Positions 5,755 to 62,167 of a DNA stretch of 64,000 bases are shown here, in pieces; positions within the stretch are counted from its first letter, which is position 1, and each line of letters begins with the position of its first letter. The notes under the pieces were generated by a model. The model was not told the origin of the DNA and searched no databases. It saw nothing but the letters and a program-made list of their open reading frames with translations. Location: NCBI RefSeq assembly GCF_964204645.1, contig NC_134026.1:1387950-1451949 (forward strand), written 5' to 3'. A program made the position numbers and the translations under genes. Source of the stretch: Tubulanus polymorphus. Its lineage: Eukaryota; Animalia; Nemertea.

Positions 5755-38682
<32,928 letters not shown>

Positions 38683-39200: not shown

Positions 39201-39830
39201 CATCATGTGACCGTGTTCGCGCGCGGCATGACGGGTATTTTGATATTAATGGCTACCTATAGAAAAATTTCTGTGAAATTAAATGTGTGTTTTGACAACT
39301 GAAATATTCAACAACTGGTCGTTCTACCACGTAATCATCTCGCTCTTTCATGCTTCCCTGAGACATTCTAATTTCAGGTAACTTTTGAACAACATCCATT
39401 GGTAAATGGGCCTATTTGTAACCAACGATCAATTAAAAGTGGTTTGTTTTTTTTACAGCCAGGCAGAGGAGCTAAAATAAATTCCAAATCAATTGATTCT
39501 TGAAAATATTGATGGTGTTCAATAGAAACCTGCCTGTGATTTTTGAGGACTCTTAACTGCACAGGGGCTCGTATCAGAGTTGTAGGTAATGTAAAAACGA
39601 TAATCTGTTTATCCAATGTAGGCCTAATAGTTATTTTATATAGGGCCTACTCTTCATAGACATTTGATTAACGGATTATCGTTTTTACATTACCTACAAC
39701 TCTGATACGAGCCCCTGTGCTTAACTGACAAGAGATCAAACAGGACAAAGTAATGAGATTCCTTTTCACTTTTAGAATTCTTAATAGAGAATGTATTTTT
39801 CTATTTCCAGGTAGTTTTGAAGATCTAAGT

Positions 39831-42800: not shown

Positions 42801-45800
42801 GCCTCTACTGGTCCAAATTGATTGAGTTAAAAGAGTACTGTGTTACCGGTAGACTGGTATTAATCTCAGTATTTCAAAGTTAATGACAGCAGAACCCACA
42901 TCAGTTGATGATTTAAAAATTCATTCTGACTAAAGTTCCTCATCAGAGATACAAAAATGAAAAGTCTACTGTATGTTTACGCTTCAGAACTGAATGTATA
43001 ATTCTATTATTTGGTTGTATTTAGTTTCTGAGTGATGAAGTTTCAACAGCTGTTCATATGACGCAGAATCTCTGCGATTCTAAAGGTAGCAGATTGGTGC
43101 ACGTAGATAGTTTGATGCAAACCGAACTACGAGATGTTTGGCAAGATTTAAGCGATCTTAGCGGCAGTTTACAGGTAAAACGATCATCCAATATTTCACC
43201 ATCTTAAAGCAATTCTCTCTGTGAAGTTGAATACTTCAGTGATATTATCTGCTGCTCATTTTACCTCAAAATAATTCTTTAAGAAAGATAAAATACAATA
43301 TAAACTTTTAGAACTTTGAAGTCACGAATTAAAAAGATTTTTCAAGCAAGCAATGCCCCTTACTCCTAACAACCTCAAGCTTTCAAGGTAACCGCACTTT
43401 GCCCATGGGCAATTTATTTTACCTAGCGATTATCTGGAGCGTGTATGAAACAACTCTCCGAAGAGATCAGCGACACGGCGACTGAATTTTTCTCCGATGC
43501 AATGCCAACCGGAAAAATTTGGAGACAGAAAAACAATCAAGGTACGACATGGTCATCAATACGGGCATTTCAATCCATCTAATTCTCACTTGTTATGTAG
43601 ATGTAATATTTCTACAGAAACTCCCTAAAGAACTACGTCTACTGGGGTCAGATTGATGGTGGGAAAAAAATGTGAAAAATCCCTTTATTTTGTTGTGAAA
43701 AATAACATGATTTATGCCAATTGTGAAGATGTGAAAAATTGCTAAGATCCCAGAGTTCATCAATCTGACCCCTGCGCGTAACAAAAATAGCGTTTTCAAC
43801 ATGCAGTTCTGGATCCGGTTCCACAGTTGTGAGTTAGAGTTAACTCTGAGTTAAAGTTAGTTCATTTTCAATGTTTTAACTCTTAGAGTCAAATTTAACT
43901 CAGAACTGTGGAACTGGGTTCTGTGTATTATCAACGATAAGGCAGATTTTATCGATTATATAAACATGTGTTTCAGAAGGAGATGGTTTTATTGATACGG
44001 AGGGTAATGACGTGTCCAGTTGTTTTTCACCTCCGACACACACTCCAATATTTATCTCTATATTTATCTCCTTGTATTCATGAGAATTAGTTTAGATTCC
44101 CAAAAATTAAAGTTGTGTACGTAGTTCGCTTTCGTGAAGTCCAAATTGTGACACTAGTTCATATCCTATCTTATCGGCGCACATTCATATTCATTGTCAC
44201 CTTCTGAAAAAGTCAGTGTAAAAAAAAAAGTCGATGCTATATATGGTAATTGTAGACCTGTAGACATCTCCGTGGTACACATTGTTGAAGTTCTTCCGCA
44301 ATTAAGGGTGTATTAAAAAGTTTCATGTAGAAATAGTAGTAATCTGCTCTCTGAAACCTTGATTTCATCTGTTCATGCTGGTTTTACTATAGGCTTTTAA
44401 AAACTATAGATCTCTATTCATATGTCGGGCTCGATTGCATTCATAATCAGTCAATTCACTTCATAAAGTAGATGTGTACAACTTTGCTGATTGTCAAGCC
44501 ACAAGTACGCAACCAAATCTTTGACGCCCTCCCCAGTGGATGCATATGTTCTTCATGAATGGTCATTTACTCCTCGTGTCTCGCTTGAAAACAATTACAC
44601 ATTTCCGATGACGAAAACCTCAGTAGATCCCCATATTGTCTCTATGGCTCCATTCATATAATTTAATCATTACTTAGTTTAGTAATTTTGATGATTGACT
44701 AATGAAATAGCTTATCAGGCGGTGGCCACTGACCTGGCAAATTCAGGAAAATTTGAGAAAAAATTTCGCGAAATTCAGATAATATTGACCACTTGTTTTT
44801 CTTATGGATACGTGATTCGATGAAAAATGAATGAATTGTAACATTCAATCAGTGGAAAGTGGCGCCACCCTGATTATGTGCTTTAGTAATAATACTCAAG
44901 TATTCTAAATTGTATTTTTTCATTACAGAATTTCCGACTGAGGCGAATGAATACGTTCGACACGGTTTAAACGCTATTTTAGAGCCGGTTATAGCCGGCG
45001 CAGAAAAACTAAAGGTCACATCACAACTCGGCGTCATTTCGGTAGCCGTTTCTAAAATGTGCGAAGCGTGGACAGATTTTATACTGAAGGAAAGAATTAG
45101 GTTCAGGTATGTAAAGCTAGTACGTACATGATAAACCCTTTCAGTGCAGTGTATAAATCAGTAATGGACTGTACTAAGTACACCACGTATTAGTAACTAA
45201 CAATGTACCGAAGAGCTGTACGTCCGTTATTCAACACACTGGGGTGGAATTTTTCAAAACTTGCAAATCATCTCCAACACTAAGGTATTGATTAGTCAAC
45301 ACTGAAAAAAGGGTTAATGACTACCAGAAATCTTTGCTTTTTATGCAAAATGGGATCTCAATTTGCTCTTTTTCAATAAACACCATATTGCTTGCCAGTT
45401 CAGACTTGATGGAGGATTGTAAAACTGCATTTGAAATTTCCAATTATGCACTTCGATTGAAAAAGAAAATTATGTAAATTTCAATTGCAAAATGAAACCC
45501 CCTGTTCTGTTCCCGGTAGGTTGGACACTTTAAGATGATGGCTATTTTAAGATGATGATAAGACTACGATATGTTTATATGATGGTTATATTATTTTCTA
45601 TTGCAGTCTTCACGGCGCGTGTCAACTGAAAATTGATTTCGATTACGTCATCTCATGGCTCGACTCTTACATAGAAAATACCGAGGTCAAGCAGAGTGTT
45701 CTTTCTCTGGACGTTTTCAAATACTTGGACGGTATTACGCAATTACTCATGAAACAACCGCCCAGAATCGGGAAAATGACCGAAGAAAAGGGTACGTTTT

Positions 45801-48894: not shown

Positions 48895-49152
48895 CAGGGT
48901 CCGATCTAAACACTTGTCCGATTGCCCGGGATAAGTATATTCTCATCAGGGCAAGTAGGTTATCATTATCGCTTGTCCGCTGGGCTAGTGCAGTTTTACG
49001 TCACAAAGCTATTTTCCCAATCAATACAACGGATTATAGTGCCACCAATCGGACTGCCTGTGAAGGGCAAGTATTTTTTGGAGGGGGCAAGCGAAATTTC
49101 AGATATGCTTGCCCCGCGGGAAAGTGGCTTTCATTCCTTAGATCGGACCCTG
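48895..49152. mobile_element. MITE, 15-bp perfect TIR CAGGGTCCGATCTAA, 5-bp TSD CGCTG
   Basis: TIRs 48895-48909 and 49138-49152; flanks 48890-48894 and 49153-49157 are both CGCTG. Confidence 0.85.
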
Positions 49153-49183
49153 CGCTGTTGTGAATTTTTGGGCGAAATTCTCT

Positions 49184-49460
49184 CAGAGGCGGATCCAGGG
49201 AGCCTGACGTTAGGTACTTAAAAAAATTCCTAAATGCCCTTCTCGAAGAGAGAAAAAAAAATTCAAAACGTCTTCAGAAACTTATTAAGTTGTATGAGGC
49301 AAAATGTCCTGAGTACAGTTCCTAGTACTGTGCAACGCTATTTCCAATGAATTTTTAGGTTGGGTTTGAGGCTCTTGCCATCCAAACTACTATTCATCAG
49401 GAATCTGAATTCACTAGTTTATGCCCTGTATTTCAAAATTGGACCCTGGAACCGCCGCCA
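49184..49460. mobile_element. Degenerate MITE of the CAGGGGCGGATCCAGGG family
   Basis: CAGAGGCGGATCCAGGG ... CCCTGGAACCGCC. Confidence 0.55.
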
Positions 49461-50072
49461 GCGTTTGCAACCATTGTTTTCATTTACTGTCGTTCTGTGA
49501 TATTCACTCGTTCAATATTATATGTTTTTAACCCAATAGATAACTCGTATTTTTCCTTGATTTCGCTTGATTAGAGATTATCTTCCTTTTTACTGTCCTC
49601 AAATTTTATTCATTGCCCATCATGACAATTATATATCTATATATACATGACCGGTACTTCATTGTATTTGTTCCCGTTCCTTATTTTGTTTTTGTAGTTT
49701 TAGTTTTATTATATTTTTGAGTTGGTGGAACGTTTTTCCTGCCTATATTAGTTAGTAGCGTGGTGATATTAGCTGTGATATTGATGTTTAGATATTGTTA
49801 AATCCTTTGTTTCAGTCTCACTATTTTTGTATGTTCAATCGTGTATTATTGTTCCTTTTAGAATGACAATAAAATAGTTACGAATAAGTATATGCTCCGT
49901 TCATTTTCTTTTTAAAATCTTTCATTCAGAAATTTGATTTTCTCAGAGGACTCGACTCAACACACTGTCCCGTGAGAGGGCCCGGTTTCAAATAATGTCT
50001 TAATGTCAACAGATATAGTTGTGTGATCGGCGGTCGATTTTACATAATTTTTTTTGAAATTGAAGTAGGACT

Positions 50073-50377
50073 ACTTCTTTGTCTTCTTGGGTTTCGTCGA
50101 AGCTGAAATGAATAAAAGAACAACATTCGGTAGTCAAACATTTCTTTATTAATCTTAATTTGCATGTATATCAACTTAACTTTCAAGATTGCCGAGTTCA
50201 GCAATGACTAGGATTTTCTCGACGGCGGTGGAATCTTCAGAATCACTTCTTTGTCTTCTTTGGTTCCGTCGAAGCTGAAATTGAGTAAAAGAAAAACATT
50301 CTGTAGTCACACGTTTCTCAATCATTATTCCTAATTTACATGGGTATCAACTTAGCTTTCAAGATTGCCGAGTTCAG
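50073..50377. repeat. Direct duplication of about 130 bp (50073-50201 and 50245-50377)
   Basis: Shared ACTTCTTTGTCTTCTT...GTCGAAGCTGAAAT...CTTTCAAGATTGCCGAGTTCAG. Confidence 0.85.
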
Positions 50378-50480
50378 TACTTTTTTTACGGCATCTTCTG
50401 TAGTCGCCTTCTAGCATCTTCTTCTTCATCTTGGGAGTCCTGAAATGAAAAAAAAGAGAAGAGCGATGAAAACCTGGTAC

Positions 50481-51267
50481 GGAACAAAACTAATGTCCGA
50501 AAGCTTTTCAGCTCTCCGTCGCCGGTCACATGCCGAGAACACCAGACAAAGAGCCAGCCAGGAATATACTGCCCTCTACACGCCCTCACACAGAACACGA
50601 AAACCAGGATGACGACGCCTTACTTTCACCATTTACCGACAGGGTGTGCCGGGTGACGTCAGTAACTGACAAACCTATCAAATTGCCCAAGCCAAAAATA
50701 GGGCAGCGCAACTGGATTGCCCGCACTAGCACTAGACTTAATCCCGCCCGAAGCAACCCACAGGGAATCAATGAATACTAACACGCAAAGGAAGACAGGG
50801 AAATTAATCCCTGCCCGAAGCAATCCCTTAAAAGGAATCAATGAATATTAGCACGCAAGCGATCCCGCAGTGAATCAATGAATCCTAGCACGCAAAGGAA
50901 CACAGGGAAATTAATCCCTGCCCGAAGCAATCCCTTAAAAGGAATCAATGAATGCTAGAACGCAAAGGAAGACAAGACTAAATCTTTGCCCGAAGCAATT
51001 CCTGAAAAGAAATCAATGAATACTAGTAGACAGTCCAGCTTTACCACTCCATTTTTAACCCGTGCAATCCGACTGACTTGCCCGTCATTGACGTCACCCA
51101 GCACACTCTGTTGATACGTGGGGAGAGTGAGGCCTCGTCATCCTGGTTTTCGTCTTCCGTATGAGGGAGTGTAGAGGGCAGCTATTTCCTGACCGACTCT
51201 TTGTCTGACATCCTCGACACAAGACCAGCAAAGGAGAGCCGACGCTTACGGACATTAGTTTTGTTCC
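50481..51267 (-). ncRNA. Candidate long hairpin RNA (arms 50481-50730 and 51022-51267)
   Basis: Arms about 73% identical as inverted repeats; transitions about 34:9 in favour of G.U pairing on the minus-strand RNA (hand count). Confidence 0.55.
50738..51025. repeat. Tandem ~65-bp repeat, about 4 copies (TTAATCCCTGCCCGAAGCAATCCC...GGAATCAATGAAT)
   Basis: Units visible at about 50738, 50804, 50911 and 50978. Confidence 0.85.
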
Positions 51268-51484
51268 AGCAAATGTTGAAAATCGACAGAGAAATCGGCC
51301 CTGAAAAAAAGAACGGATTAATCCCTGAAAAATTGAACGGGTTAATAAACACGGAACAGTACAGGACAGCACAGAGACAAACAGTAACACATAAAACATA
51401 AAGACGTCGTTCTTCAGGAAGCAGGAACAGGAGCGCAGCGAAGATCGCCAGGATCATGATCGCCAGGAGAATCCACGGAAGCAT
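51182..51484 (-). CDS. Small ORF with an N-terminal hydrophobic helix (MLPWILLAIMILAIFAALLFLLPEERR), possibly spliced
   Basis: TATAAG about 45 nt upstream; after about codon 27 the sequence looks like an intron with two TTTTTCAG acceptors near 51301 and 51325. Confidence 0.35.
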   Translation of the reverse strand: MLPWILLAIMILAIFAALLFLLPEERRLYVLCVTVCLCAVLYCSVFINPFNFSGINPFFFSGPISLSIFNICWNKTNVRKRRLSFAGLVSRMSDKESVRK

Positions 51485-52094
51485 GTCTGCACAGTGTGAG
51501 AGAGCGGAGGTGAATGAGCTCGCCTATGCTTATACACCGTGGTCAGCCGGTGACGTATTCCAATTGTGATCAATAGCGCGTGTGAATGATATCAACAAAC
51601 TCTGAAAAACCGCAAATGTGTCTCTATTGTTGAATGAAAAGCTAAAGGTTCCACTGCCGGGTTAGTCTGAAAACCAGTCGTTTATCGGTTCCCTACACAA
51701 CATGTTTGAACGACGCCGCTAGGTTCTAGAACTGCCGTGCCGGGTTGAATACGCGCCAGTAGCTAGCTGAACAATAAGGCCATAAAAATAGATTACTTGA
51801 TTCCAAACAGCTCCCCTCCAGCCGCCGCCTGTTTTTTTCTTAACTTTTAGAATGATTTATAAACTATACCGACCGATAGCTCGTCACGACTTCAGTTAAA
51901 AATGCACACCAACCATGCCAACGTACAAGTCTTCACAGGGCCATACGGCATAGAGCTTTTGGAATATTTCGTTCGGTATCGGTACGTTATGAAATATTAG
52001 GCCTACACTAATGAATTTTGTGAGTCTCCCTCAAGTTCTGAATGACCTATATTTTCACGAACTTCTGACGAGGATCAAGTACCCGGTATTGAGT

Positions 52095-52266
52095 TTTGAA
52101 TCGGGTCCTCTCACGGGACAGTGTGTTGAATCTTTCCTCTCACGGGACAGTATTTAGAATCGAGTCCTCTCACTTCGGGTCAAGAGTCCTCCTGGCACAT
52201 GGGACAGTGGCTTGAATCGGGTGCCCGACCTCACGGAACACAGCATTGCGAATCGGATCCTCTCAC
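52095..52266. repeat. Minisatellite-like ~30-bp units (GAATCGGGTCCTCTCACGGGACAGT), about 5 degenerate copies
   Basis: Direct inspection. Confidence 0.75.
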
Positions 52267-53422
52267 TTTGACTAAATATTAGGTTCTCTCGAGACAGATC
52301 TAATTAGGGCCAATAAGTTGCCTTCTTCGATTTTACTTTTTTGCAGTGTAGACGCTTAACAAACGTTTAGTGAATAACCACTGGAACCAAAAAGACTACA
52401 TTCACTTTATTTTCGATCGATACTGCCTTTCTGTCTTCTCTTGATCCTAGTTAGTTACCTAATCGTTGGTGGTAAGCTTTTTATAATCGGATGGGCTTAT
52501 ATGTGGTTTGTGAAAATATCCGATCGTGAAACTAAACCACAGACAGGTTACTGACTACTCTTGATCCGACCTTTATTACATCTAATTTTTCGATTTGATG
52601 ATATCATTGATCTGAAATAATCAAATAACGAATAAATTTAGATTATTAACATGTTCTTAACATTTTCAGTGTAGTAAACAATCGAGTTCAGTTACTTCCG
52701 ATATTTCGTCTATAAAATGCAAAGTTTTCATTTTTCATCGGGACCTGTGACGGGACTCAGGTCCTCTCACAGGAGATGCTGCACTGTTGCAGAGAGATAC
52801 CGGTTTCGAAAAAAAATCGATCTCCCTCCACCATCCAGGGCTCCAAAATTTCTTGAAACTATTAAACTTTACAGAAATATCATCTTTAAAATGGCATCTA
52901 CTGATATTAGCAAGAATCTACAACAGCAGGTTCCACTCGAATTCATGTTTAAATGAATCAAGACGCGCCGGGTGCACGTCACTGCGAATCAACAAAAAAT
53001 CATAATTAAATTTTATTCCCGTTCTCTCTCAGTCCATGCTAAAATTAAACGATACCTTGTTTCTCCTAATCAGCCAGGTCATTCCATTGACTGCGATGAA
53101 ATTTCATATTCAATTCTATAGCTGCCGGGTCTGTTGTTAGTTTGGCTAACATGATCATGAATGAATGTATAGGCCTATGTTAGAAGGTGGCAATTAATTA
53201 TTAGAATATAACCAGTAAATGTTTAGCTTTTTCTTTGGTTGCTTCACATGAATATGATATATGATGGGCGACCCACCAAGTTCATGGCCTAAAAATTCAG
53301 TGAAGCTCCTATTATTACATATATATAACCTATAACAACAATCTATATGAAACACCTACATCTCTAAGCAAAACATGTTGAAGTGAAACATATCTGTAAC
53401 TGATTTGACTTCTGGTTTGTAG

Positions 53423-56400
53423 GATGATGATGTATACGATGATAATGAGGATGATATTGATGAAATTGAAGATTGCCCTGATTCCGTTGGCTCGAAGTTG
53501 AAAGCTTGTTTAAATATCAATGATTTAACTGAAGGAACTGAGTTTGAGATCGTTCCATCTGTAACAGAAGATGAGGTTCCTTATTCAGGTAGGCCCCTCT
53601 CCTCACCTATTAGAGTTTTTTGCAAGTTTTTGAATTAACATTAAACTTAAAGCCCTTATAATCTATGCTCGGTTTTCAAGCAAAATCCTGAAAGTGCTTA
53701 AAACTGCTTCATTCCACAGTTAAACTTGAAGGATAAATCTTTTAATGTAAAAAAGTCTTTGAAATCTGCAGACTTCCATTTTTGAAATGTCTCAAAGCAC
53801 TTCATTGGTTTTCGTACCACTTTTGCCTCGACCGTATGCTGCAACGAACCTTTTGAATTTCGAAATATTATGAATGAAGAGTTTGTTTTTGTAGATCAAG
53901 TAAAAAAAGAATATTTTGGAAACGGTAATAATTTGATCGCTCAAGGTGAGGACAGCGATGAGGAGGAGAATAGCGATCTTACTCCTTTCGAGAGAATCGA
54001 AAGAAAGATGCATGATATCTCGGACGGTGAAAATGGTGTGATGAAAATGGTGTTGAAGGAAGGGGCTGGAGCTCGAGTACCGGATGGGGCTTTTGTCAGA
54101 GGTATATCGCTGATTTTATGGTTTTAACTCACTAACTTCAAGCCGTCACTCTGTCTCAACTCTCTCTAAACTGCCCTATTGATGCATAGATAATTCCACG
54201 TAATTCCACGAATGAAATTGGTCTAATTAAAACCTTTTAAACCTGTTAAATTGATCTCAATCCTCAGAGAATCAGAGATGAATCATTATCATCATTACCA
54301 AAAAACATCCTCTTATTGTATTTTTGTCATTACTTAGAATTCATTTGTCAGTCATGAATTTATCTTTGAATAGTCCAATGCAGGGGCGGATCCAGGGGCA
54401 TGTTGTGACAATGTCGACCAATATAAAGGGCATATATTCTTAATTTGGCGGAAAGGCGTATCAGCAAAATTTTTGAAATTTTACTATCATTTTAGAGCTT
54501 TCTGAGCATCTCTGAGAGGCATTTAGTCAAGAAAAGGTTATATGTTTAGGAAAAATATCTATTGTGAATCTCGAGTGGTAACAATGGCAAATTCTGATAC
54601 AGAGAGAAAAAGTAAAAAGGCACTAAAGAATTCCACCCGTGTCGGTCGACACGGTCTAAATCCTCCCCTGCAATGAAGCTTGATGGTATTACATCTCTGT
54701 ACATGATATGTTGTGTGTAGTATGTATGTGAATTAAGTGAATTAAACCGTCATCTCTTAATTTCTATTATTTTCAGTTCATTACAATGGATTCCTCGAAT
54801 ACAGCGATGAACCGTATGACAGTTCAAGATTGCGGGATTGTCCGGAAAAATTCACAGTCGGCGAAAGTGAGTTTGTATTGAATTTTAATTTTGATTTCAC
54901 CAATAAATCAAGAGGTTCAGTTGCTCAAAAAAGTTGGTCGAAGTGGACAAATACCACAGTGACAATTTCATTGAAACGATGGAATTTGTCTAACCAAGTT
55001 TTGAGCAACTGGCCGCTGATAGATGCTTTGGTTATAATGCAGATTTTAGTGGTCACCATGTCGGTTATCCATCGATTAACTTTTGAACATCTGGCCCAAG
55101 AGGATTTCTCGTATTTCTCGAGAATTTTTGTTATTCCGACATCATTAAGAATTAAGAACACGTTTTGCTCCATCAAATTTTTCTGAGGTTTGTTATTCCT
55201 CTGTTTTCAATGATTAATTATTCTGTGATTCAGGTGAAGTGATTCCTGGATGGGAGATAGCAGTGAAAACGATGAAGAAAGGAGAATTGAGTCGATTTCT
55301 CATCAAGTCTGATTACTCGTATGGACCGAGGGGATGTCCGCCTCGTATACCCCCTGCAGCTGCTAGTCAGTACCTTTTGATATTTTTCATTGTCTGTCGT
55401 AGCTAAGCATCATAAACCTCATTAGAGGAGGACACACAAAACATCGATGTACTACTACTTGTATTTATGTTTTATTTGTATTTATACTATGCAGGGTGCT
55501 ACTGAAATGGAAAACCTGACAAGTGTTTATCAATACGTGATTCATGAACAGATAAATGAATAAATTCTAACATTCAAAGATATCTCCATTCATCAGTAGA
55601 TTCACTAAAAACATGGTTAAAACATGGAAAACTCGGGAAATTTTTGGGGCCACCTTGATGATGTTGTGCAGATGTAGTTGTTTTCATACTCACTGGTATT
55701 TGATATATCTATTGTGTTTGTTTTTGTTACAGTTTTATTCGAAATTGAGGTGCTCAGTTTTATGGATAGGTCGGGGGTTGATTCCTTCTTCAATAAAAAT
55801 AGGGTGTGTATTTCATTATAGAAATTCATGTATCCGATAGTTTTAATTCTTCTAACATCCATCTCTTCGTTTCAATGATTTATTTTAGAGAGATCGATTG
55901 GAAACTCCGTTCTCTGATGTTATGAGAGCAGTTAGGGCGGAAGAAGAGGTAACTAACGTGAAGTTCGCTTTCTACTATTGTTTTCTAGTTTTCTTGCTTT
56001 AAACCTTCTCTTTTTTCGCATTACAGATGGCAAAAGACCAGTGGAAACGCCAGAAATATAACAAAGCACTCGTTAGATACCAACGGGTAAAAATCTTTAT
56101 AAATTTTCACTGAAAGATGATATTTCTCTAGGTTCCGCGTAGTGTCGTACTTACGACTTGTATCAATGCTGTATTTTAGATAGTGACACGAGCGTTGGAA
56201 GAGGCTCGACTCGAAAATGCTGAAGACGAAACTATTCAACAGAAGCATCTTCACAAAAACTATCTTAACCTAGCGCGGTGTGCTTTAAGACAGGGCGAGT
56301 ATGAAAGAGCGCGAAGCAATTGTCGTAAGGCCCTCGATATCAAGAGGGATGCGCCAACATTATTTTTAATGGGCAAGGTAAATGAAATTTGAAACTTTGC

Positions 56401-60959: not shown

Positions 60960-62167
60960 TCAATCTGGTTCGCTGCTGAGTATACCAACTTTTCTACCAA
61001 CCCAGCGACATTTCTCTTTTACTTCTTCTTGCATGAGGTTGAAACACATCGCCAATACGGATAATCCAAACGCTAGGTAAAGAGCACAGGCCACCAGTTT
61101 CTCCTGCGAGGCCCACGAGCCCAATTTCATTCCTGGGACAATATCTCCGAATCCTATAGTACTTAATGTTACAAAACAGAAGTAGGAACCGGTTAAATAG
61201 TCCCAGCCTTCCCAACGCGCGAACAAAATCGACCCGAAGAAAACGTACCCTGCAATAAGTAGTAAACACAAAACAATCGGGACTCGTACTTTCTGTTCTT
61301 TGTGAGACTTATGTTCGACTTCGATATCGACACTTTTTGTATGTTTTAGGGCGCTAATTCTATCTAGGTTGCGGCTTCTATGTTTTGCACTTCCACTGGC
61401 GCTACCACCGCTTTCTTCACCGGCGGCGGCTAATGCAAACATTGCTTCCGTGTCACTTTTCCATCGTTTATCCTTTCGACGATTTCGTTTTCGTCGATTT
61501 GATCTGTTACGACGTAAACGAGCTCGTCTAGCCGTTTCTTCTTCCTGAATTTCCTCTGGTGTTTTAGCCTCCTGTTCCGGATTGCTTTCGCCGAAACCGT
61601 TCGTCAAGTCGGTTTCCTTGCAATCCAACAACTCGTTGACACTGATCAAGATATCTTCGTCTTTCAACAGAATTTTTGTATCTTCGAGCGACAAATTCCC
61701 GCTTTTGAATTCGTCGTATTGGTAAAACAAATCCGCAAAATCTGTCGGAGTTTCTACATGATTTTCCTCGCAATGTTCTAACAAGCTTGTCTCCGTCAAC
61801 GTACTTTCACGATTTGGCGTATCCTTTGCGTTCTTGCCTCCTTTAGCTTCGTCTTTATTAGTTTTTTCTTTTTTAGTTTTCTTCTTTTTGCCCTTTTTAT
61901 TGGCTTTAGTGTCGTTTTCGATCGGATGTTGTTGACTATTTTCTGGATCGACGTCCGTACCGGCTCGTCGCCGACGATTCTGCTTCGAAGCTCGGAAACA
62001 AATACAACATACTCCGCAGCAAACCCGAGCGTATAACATTCGAAAGCAGTCCGCAAGAAAATCGCCGATATTAGCGAGACACAGGAAAGTAAGGGGTATT
62101 CCGATCAATGCATAAAGTATCGTCGCTACACGCCCAGTCTTGGTTTTGGGCGCCACGTGACCATATC
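60960..62167 (-). CDS. Two-pore-domain K+ channel (K2P/TWiK family), last exon; earlier exons were not found in the window
   Basis: Acceptor at 62168. GYGHVAPKT (end of P1), M2 TILYALIGIPL, M3, P2 YFCFVTLSTIGFGDIVP, M4, stop at 60960. Confidence 0.93.

What the first reader, a model, noticed from the sequence alone, without database searches (positions are those of the whole stretch)
50481..51267. Long inverted repeat with strand-specific G.U wobble bias: candidate hairpin-RNA (endo-siRNA/miRNA) locus or fossil of ADAR-edited dsRNA
Seen: 50481-50730 and the reverse complement of 51022-51267 align almost without gaps (shared GGAACAAAACTAATGTCCG, GCCCTCTACAC, ACGAAAACCAGGATGACGA, GGGTGACGTCA). 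Over 210 aligned nt I count by hand about 57 differences: about 34 transitions giving G.U pairs in a minus-strand transcript, about 9 transitions the other way, and about 14 transversions. The minus-strand RNA is therefore about 89% paired versus about 77% for the plus strand. Neutral DNA divergence should be roughly symmetric. Inference: either selection maintains a ~240-bp RNA duplex (as in Drosophila hpRNA endo-siRNA loci or viral miRNA precursors), or A-to-I hyper-editing of the dsRNA was fixed by reverse transcription, since every biased change also reads as A>G on the minus-strand RNA. A TATA box just upstream on the same strand supports transcription in the predicted direction.
Basis: partly seen in the sequence, partly recalled or inferred. 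Interest (0 to 1): 0.85.

Follow-up and report, generated by a model that had tools for sequence, protein, structure and literature searches.

The report
Ribbon-worm mobile repeat carrying giant hairpin
A repeat present in roughly 150 copies in a ribbon worm carries a 240-base-pair inverted repeat whose mismatches favour pairing on one strand only, so it likely folds as a long RNA hairpin kept by selection and may be cut into silencing small RNAs, in an animal group reported to lack the usual enzyme for that.

Summary
Over 239 aligned columns (50481-50722 vs 51028-51267), 35 differences give G.U on the minus strand, 9 on the plus strand and 16 are transversions (p=1e-4); 89.5% vs 78.7% paired. 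The window is from the nemertean Tubulanus polymorphus (a neighbouring protein is 100% identical to its RefSeq CCDC142-like protein). The hairpin is not a single host locus. It is the best-covered part of a ~2.3-kb repeat family: about 150 copies by WGS depth, inverted arrays of a ~29-nt unit at its ends, and a minus-strand Pol II-like layout. The bias is family-wide: 21:3 in pairs shared with the read majority, about 30:9 in the majority. Six near-fixed family letters all restore pairs broken in this copy, so this copy is decaying. The loop repeats show the same strand preference. The ADAR-fossil reading fails: no 5' G depletion, 10 of 14 G.U switches are C/U, and no retroelement features were seen. 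Family-wide variation shows no strand-biased mutation (159:158). Best reading: a selected minus-strand hairpin, likely a small-RNA precursor of a mobile element. Transcription, dicing and targets are untested. The scan noted similar wobble-biased repeats on other DNA before.

The parts
49945..52270 (-). ~2.3-kb multicopy repeat element, likely a non-autonomous DNA-transposon derivative; termini and target-site duplication not fixed
   Evidence: WGS depth 100-1350 across it vs about 7-11 in flanking unique bins; inverted end arrays
49945..49995 (.). left array of the ~29-nt subterminal unit (2 units here; other copies have more)
   Evidence: inverted to 52094-52170 (I4 and I6); read joints going back 30 and 55 nt
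50073..50441 (-). tandem ~172-176-nt 3' units, each starting after a pyrimidine tract + CAG; AATAAA at 50150-50145
   Evidence: direct repeats D11, D16; sequence; motif scan; function inferred
50481..50722 (-). 3' arm of the long hairpin
   Evidence: depth about 1200-1400 in the outer part
50726..51027 (-). loop of five tandem units (periods 68 and 107) with a small G.U-rich helix kept on the minus strand
   Evidence: 33 of 34 cells paired, 15 of them G.U
51028..51267 (-). 5' arm of the long hairpin
51182..51484 (-). 100-codon hydrophobic ORF whose last 83 nt lie in the 5' arm; may be a T-rich intron-like stretch rather than a real protein
   Evidence: no convincing homologue
51529..51564 (-). 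promoter-like motifs: CCAAT box, CRE-like half site, TATAAG
   Evidence: consensus names recalled; TATAAG varies in about half of family reads
52095..52270 (.). right array of the ~29-nt subterminal unit (about 6 units, decaying outward)
   Evidence: read joints going back 24, 30 and 75 nt

Best explanation
The inverted repeat is the core of a roughly 150-copy repeat family in a ribbon worm, and it likely folds in the element's own minus-strand transcript into a 240-bp G.U-rich hairpin that selection likely maintained and that is likely cut into small silencing RNAs. Shown: the repeat, the strand bias, its presence across the family, the decay of this copy, the multicopy state. Inferred: mobility by a DNA transposase supplied in trans; Pol II transcription from about 51500 to the AATAAA at 50150; selection on RNA pairing (G.U tolerated, A.C and transversions removed). 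Untested: dicing (it would need Dicer-1, since Dicer-2 is reported absent in nemerteans), loading on the retained siAGO, and the target. The 5' arm overlaps the element's own ORF, so the nearest candidate targets are transcripts of the same family or its helper.
For: 35:9 bias, p=1e-4. Against the family's own substitution spectrum, only the minus-strand G.U class is in excess over transversions (Fisher p=7e-5); the plus class is not (p=0.84) (spectrum). Hand tally from the 34 arm rows plus its loose-end lines, pairs 50481-50701: 21 G.U vs 3 C.A are shared between this copy and the read majority (p=3e-4); the majority state is about 30:9 (p=1e-3). 6 of 6 near-fixed family letters (91-98% of reads) restore Watson-Crick pairs. 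6 of 6 pairs changed on both sides are paired in the majority, and 3 of them are paired in both states. Arms are held by 4-5 times more reads than the loop (about 1200-1400 vs 250-330). The loop helix is paired in 33 of 34 cells with 15 G.U, and all 4 varying pairs switch between WC and G.U; 5 of 5 loop units fold with lower energy on minus. The promoter-like motifs, acceptor-like sites and AATAAA point the same way.
Against: Single-transition differences between this copy and the majority subfamily are 12 WC/G.U vs 7 WC/C.A (p=0.36), so recent divergence alone does not show the bias. Of 33 pairs touched by listed rows, 9-12 are unpaired in the majority. Six double changes vs about 3 expected by chance is only p=0.06. 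Left-arm and right-arm variants are phased by similar frequency, not by linked reads; 14 of 54 rows were not shown; 5 of the 6 double changes rest partly on loose-end or 2-read lines. Nemerteans are reported to lack Dicer-2, and one species showed no endo-siRNA signature (PMC11114477, section 7). No arm-complementary target of 13 nt or more lies in the rest of the window. TATAAG is weak and variable. Only 2 of 5 loop units fold better than shuffles on minus (z about -2.2).
Confidence: 0.5

Rival explanations
1. The RNA duplex is selected but is not a small-RNA source: it acts in cis, bridging splice sites around the tandem acceptor-like 3' units, or sequestering or stabilising the element's transcript.
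For: All pairing evidence applies equally. The stem base lies 40 nt upstream of an acceptor-like site at 50441 and just after two tandem acceptor-like sites. Dicer-2 is reported absent (PMC11114477).
Against: The only good donor at the stem base (GT at 51249-51248) is private to this copy: 1390 of 1416 reads carry another letter. 240 bp of near-continuous pairing is more than a splice bridge needs (own knowledge).
Confidence: 0.2
2. The hairpin forms on one DNA strand during replication or transposition of the element, and repair or arm-to-arm conversion removes A.C mismatches and transversions but passes G.T; no RNA function is needed.
For: It explains strand polarity and family-wide inheritance. 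A read joint between the arms (50569 to 51184, opposite strands, 127 reads) shows that copies differ in which arm carries which letters.
Against: It does not explain why the arms are held more widely than the loop and promoter. The end-array inverted repeats of the same element show no minus bias (1:3 and 2:0; few sites). Polarity matches the Pol II layout.
Confidence: 0.13
3. A neutral inverted duplication that diverged under strand-biased mutation (C>T and A>G on the transcribed sense strand).
For: The 3' arm, loop and ORF are 62-64% G+T on minus. 15 of 35 G.U pairs are in a CpG context, and the two private G.U are CpG C>T. GC skew changes sign along the window.
Against: Family-wide differences are symmetric: G>A + A>G 159 vs C>T + T>C 158 over 4.5 kb, which includes other repeats, and 16 vs 14 in the hairpin region. 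The 5' arm, promoter and 3' units are 46-51% G+T. The bias is 29:1 in the stems and 1:5 in the bubble.
Confidence: 0.12
4. A fossil of ADAR hyper-editing fixed by reverse transcription.
For: Every minus-strand G.U can be read as A>G, and the G is split 17:18 between the arms.
Against: G is the 5' neighbour of 12 of 35 such Gs (9 after allowing for adjacent G.U), against 27 of 83 for unchanged As (p=1.0 and 0.52), whereas hyper-editing strongly depletes upstream G across Metazoa (PMC5625713, passages). 10 of 14 G.U pairs that switch between copies switch with G-C, only 4 with A-U (hand tally). No poly(A) tail, LTR or RT was seen, and acceptor-like sites remain in the DNA.
Confidence: 0.04

Closest known systems
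Drosophila hairpin RNA (hpRNA) endo-siRNA loci (PMC10317233, passages read)
   Same: Long imperfect inverted repeat inside an mRNA-like, spliced, polyadenylated unit; some are amplified and carry transposon pieces. That their stems are G.U-rich is recalled, not read here.
   Different: Here the hairpin is cargo of a ~150-copy interspersed family with inverted end arrays, in a phylum reported to lack Dicer-2; no small RNAs or target shown.
Non-autonomous cargo-carrying DNA transposons (Pack-MULE size range in PMC6431247, passages; Foldback/CACTA subterminal arrays recalled)
   Same: 1-2 kb scale, inverted ends built of short tandem units, gene-like middle, no transposase.
   Different: Exact termini, target-site duplication and partner transposase not found; the hairpin is internal and strand-polar, not formed by the terminal repeats.
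MITE-derived miRNA and siRNA hairpins (search listing only, 10.1101/2021.07.25.453727)
   Same: A mobile repeat supplies a fold-back transcript.
   Different: The arms are 75% identical and G.U-biased rather than near-perfect terminal repeats, and lie under an apparent own promoter.

Membership tests
hpRNA endo-siRNA locus | long intramolecular duplex, much longer than a pre-miRNA | tested here: met
   205 of 239 pairs with p>0.9 on minus; in silico only
hpRNA endo-siRNA locus | mRNA-like transcript (capped, spliced, polyadenylated) over the hairpin | tested here: inconclusive
   motifs only; no stranded RNA data
hpRNA endo-siRNA locus | phased ~21-nt small RNAs from both arms | not testable with these tools
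hpRNA endo-siRNA locus | Dicer-2 / AGO2 dependence | not testable with these tools
   genome not held; PMC11114477 reports siAGO but no Dicer-2 in Nemertea; Tubulanus is not named in its main text
hpRNA endo-siRNA locus | complementary target gene | tested here: inconclusive
   none in the window; arm-frame translation has no convincing homologue; genome not searchable
hpRNA endo-siRNA locus | pairing conserved by compensatory change | tested here: inconclusive
   6 of 6 double changes paired, excess p=0.06, phasing inferred
non-autonomous TIR DNA transposon | multicopy | tested here: met
   arm depth about 150 times the unique flank; dispersal not shown directly
non-autonomous TIR DNA transposon | inverted terminal or subterminal repeats | tested here: met
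non-autonomous TIR DNA transposon | defined termini with target-site duplication and a partner transposase | tested here: inconclusive
   none evident by eye; no other full copy available; scans 56 and 57 empty
ADAR-edited retrocopy | A>G changes with upstream-G depletion | tested here: not met
ADAR-edited retrocopy | signs of reverse transcription (poly(A) tail, LTR, RT, intron loss) | tested here: not met
known Rfam family or miRNA | covariance-model match | tested here: not met
   0 matches at E<=1 in 49500-52800

The most novel reading that the evidence does not exclude
A DNA transposon family in a Dicer-2-less ribbon worm carries its own hpRNA gene: a Pol II transcript with a selected 240-bp G.U-rich stem that feeds small RNAs to the orphan nemertean siAGO and silences a rival element or a host defence gene, i.e. 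a mobile, self-spreading endo-siRNA cassette.
Probability: 0.2. Interest if true: 0.85.

Novelty: new variant of a known kind. Interest (0 to 1): 0.52.

Why it matters
Nemerteans are reported to keep siRNA-type Argonautes without Dicer-2, and what those Argonautes load is open (PMC11114477). A selected, multicopy long hairpin gives one concrete place to look: a single small-RNA library from this species would show whether long hairpins are diced. If they are, this would be a hairpin-RNA gene spread by a mobile element in a spiralian. If not, it is a selected long RNA duplex with another role, or a one-strand DNA process.

Tried and rejected
No RNA holder listed: no evidence either way. Runs X6 and X7 gave 0 contigs on the hairpin. 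X8 (kind not on record) gave 30 contigs on the outer arms only; with no silent control stretch this is not counted as expression. The window's genome is not held, so no full copies, R-scape, target search or target-site duplication. Exact-motif scans found nothing in viral contigs or metagenome contigs; the search for related loci had 69 pattern hits and 0 confirmed: no sign of a viral origin, and no proof against one. ORF searches: no Pfam hit at cutoff, 0 hits, no usable Atlas hit, and 2 weak hits (E 6e-5, 4e-4) to unrelated repetitive proteins, judged spurious. A splice donor at the stem base was considered and rejected as a family feature. Rfam empty. The bacterial promoter scan is not informative here. 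Two primary hpRNA papers looked up by recalled ids were not held. No description of this element appeared in the listings of searches; repeat libraries (Repbase, Dfam) could not be searched, and supplements were not read (the miRNA tables of PMC11114477 could bear on it). Structure prediction was not used: no credible protein.

Full report
1. Observation. The repeat finder lists the pair as the longest inverted repeat of the window (212 nt ungapped, 73%). A gapped alignment gives 259 columns: 190 identical, 39 differences that pair as G.U in a minus-strand RNA, 9 that do so on plus, and 21 transversions (p=1.5e-5). Trimmed to 50481-50722 / 51028-51267 it is 239 columns, 179 / 35 / 9 / 16, p=1.1e-4, 89.5% vs 78.7% paired. 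The minus strand folds at -455 and the plus at -327 kcal/mol; in a 1.4-kb context 205 vs 142 of the 239 pairs reach p>0.9. The bias sits in two stems (16:0 over 138 pairs, 13:1 over 58) separated by a 23-pair bubble (1:5). Seven shorter inverted repeats of the window, two of them in this element's ends, show no such pattern but have only 1-4 transitions each. Rfam has no match.

2. Where it lies. The ORF at 39753 is 100% identical over 94% of its length to a Tubulanus polymorphus protein carrying PF14923 (the name CCDC142 is recalled); its exons run on plus to 46332. A plus-strand FKBP + TPR gene follows from about 53400, with FKBP6 as best PDB match for one exon (E=0.008). The hairpin lies between them, inside 49945-52270. 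In WGS run X5 the unique flank has depth about 7-11, this stretch 100-1350. At 80% likeness the outer arms reach about 1200-1400 and the loop 250-330: about 150 copies hold the arms and about 30 hold this loop type. The ends are inverted arrays of a ~29-nt unit, 2 units left and about 6 right, and read joints show longer arrays in other copies. I could not fix termini or a target-site duplication, so 'DNA transposon derivative' is an inference.

3. Anatomy on the minus strand: CCAAT, a CRE-like half site and TATAAG at 51564-51529; ATG at 51484 opening a 100-codon hydrophobic ORF; two tandem pyrimidine-CAG sites; the 5' arm; a loop of five tandem units; the 3' arm; then ~172-176-nt tandem units each preceded by a pyrimidine tract and CAG; AATAAA at 50150. 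These are motifs, not shown function. TATAAG differs in 74 of 156 reads. The ORF has no convincing homologue and is 42% T over 51268-51484, so it may be partly intron.

4. Family variation. One search found 54 positions at which at least 45% of reads differ and showed 40, 34 of them in the arms; I tallied these by hand against the pair table, adding partner letters from its loose-end and between-joint lines. (a) Six positions differ in 91-98% of reads; all six restore a Watson-Crick pair (4 transversion mismatches and 2 CpG C>T wobbles in this copy). This copy is decaying and the family pairs better. (b) The others, at 51-79%, mark a second subfamily. For pairs 50481-50701, 21 G.U and 3 C.A pairs are common to this copy and the majority (p=3e-4; 5 unassigned hidden rows could lower the 21), and the majority state is about 30:9 (p=1e-3) (statistics). 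(c) Six pairs change on both sides and all six are paired in the majority; three are paired in both states (G-C to U.G, G.U to U-A, U-A to G-C). Against this: six doubles vs about three expected is p=0.06; single-transition differences between subfamilies are 12 WC/G.U vs 7 WC/C.A (p=0.36); 9-12 of 33 touched pairs are unpaired in the majority, many in or near the bubble; phasing is by frequency only. So the bias is old and shared, and selection during the recent spread is suggested but not proven.

5. Second signal. The five loop units align, and each folds with lower energy on minus, though only two beat their shuffles. A 7-bp helix chosen from those folds is paired in 33 of 34 cells, 15 as G.U, and its 4 varying pairs all switch between WC and G.U; no pair changes on both sides and the shuffle control is uninformative. 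The units are close relatives, so this is modest support.

6. Alternatives. ADAR: the 5' neighbour of the wobble G is G in 12 of 35 (9 after allowing for adjacent wobbles) vs 27 of 83 for unchanged A, while upstream G is strongly depleted at hyper-edited sites across Metazoa (PMC5625713, passages); 10 of 14 switching wobbles alternate with G-C; no retro features were seen. Strand-biased mutation: family differences are 159:158 over 4.5 kb (this includes other repeats) and 16:14 over the hairpin; relative to that spectrum only the minus G.U class is in excess (p=7e-5; plus class p=0.84). One-strand DNA hairpin repair cannot be excluded. A cis role in splicing is possible, but the donor at the stem base is private to this copy.

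7. Mechanism. I put about 0.7 on selected RNA pairing, and 0.5 on a small-RNA precursor specifically. The element would transcribe an mRNA-like RNA whose middle folds into a 240-bp rod; G.U-making changes are tolerated, A.C-making ones removed. Drosophila hpRNAs are spliced, polyadenylated inverted-repeat transcripts, some amplified and some with transposon arms (PMC10317233, passages). But nemerteans are reported to have siAGO without Dicer-2, and Notospermus small RNAs showed no endo-siRNA signature (PMC11114477, passages and section 7); an annelid and molluscs also lack one (PMC8915122, PMC12479628, passages). Processing would have to use Dicer-1. No target is known; none of 13 nt or more lies in the window.

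8. Novelty. No description of the element appeared in eight searches (listings only), and repeat libraries were not searchable. The scan has no note on this or look-alike DNA but has several on wobble-biased inverted repeats in other genomes. It works like an hpRNA stem in silico; membership is not established. Verdict: a real, family-wide, strand-polar long hairpin in a new mobile repeat; interest 0.52.

Noticed in passing
window 53423-56392 (+): Exons of an FKBP + TPR gene, best PDB match FKBP6, a piRNA-pathway factor by the title of PMC9606565 (listing only). A possible first exon starts near 52891, which would put the repeat head-to-head about 600 bp upstream of it. Probably coincidence, untested.
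   Followed up: partly
window 52740-52800: A third, decayed array of the ~29-nt unit, oriented like the left end; either the true outer end or the start of another copy.
   Followed up: partly
window 52448-52557: Fragment of a very high-copy repeat (depth about 5000 vs 7-11 unique).
   Followed up: no
window 50009-50053: A 45-nt piece shared with another, more abundant repeat family (2785 reads with a loose end there); may link the element to its autonomous partner.
   Followed up: no
window 48895-49250: Another multicopy repeat (depth 650-1750) just left of the element.
   Followed up: no
window 17647-17760, 43811-43923, 7464-7508: Copies of a MITE-like palindromic repeat, one inside an intron of the CCDC142-like gene.
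   Followed up: no
window 39559-39720: 61-nt 95% inverted repeat about 100 nt upstream of the first aligned codon of the CCDC142-like gene.
   Followed up: no
window 60960-62156 (-): Large exon with two Ion_trans_2 stretches' hit, a two-pore potassium channel-like gene (family name recalled).
   Followed up: no
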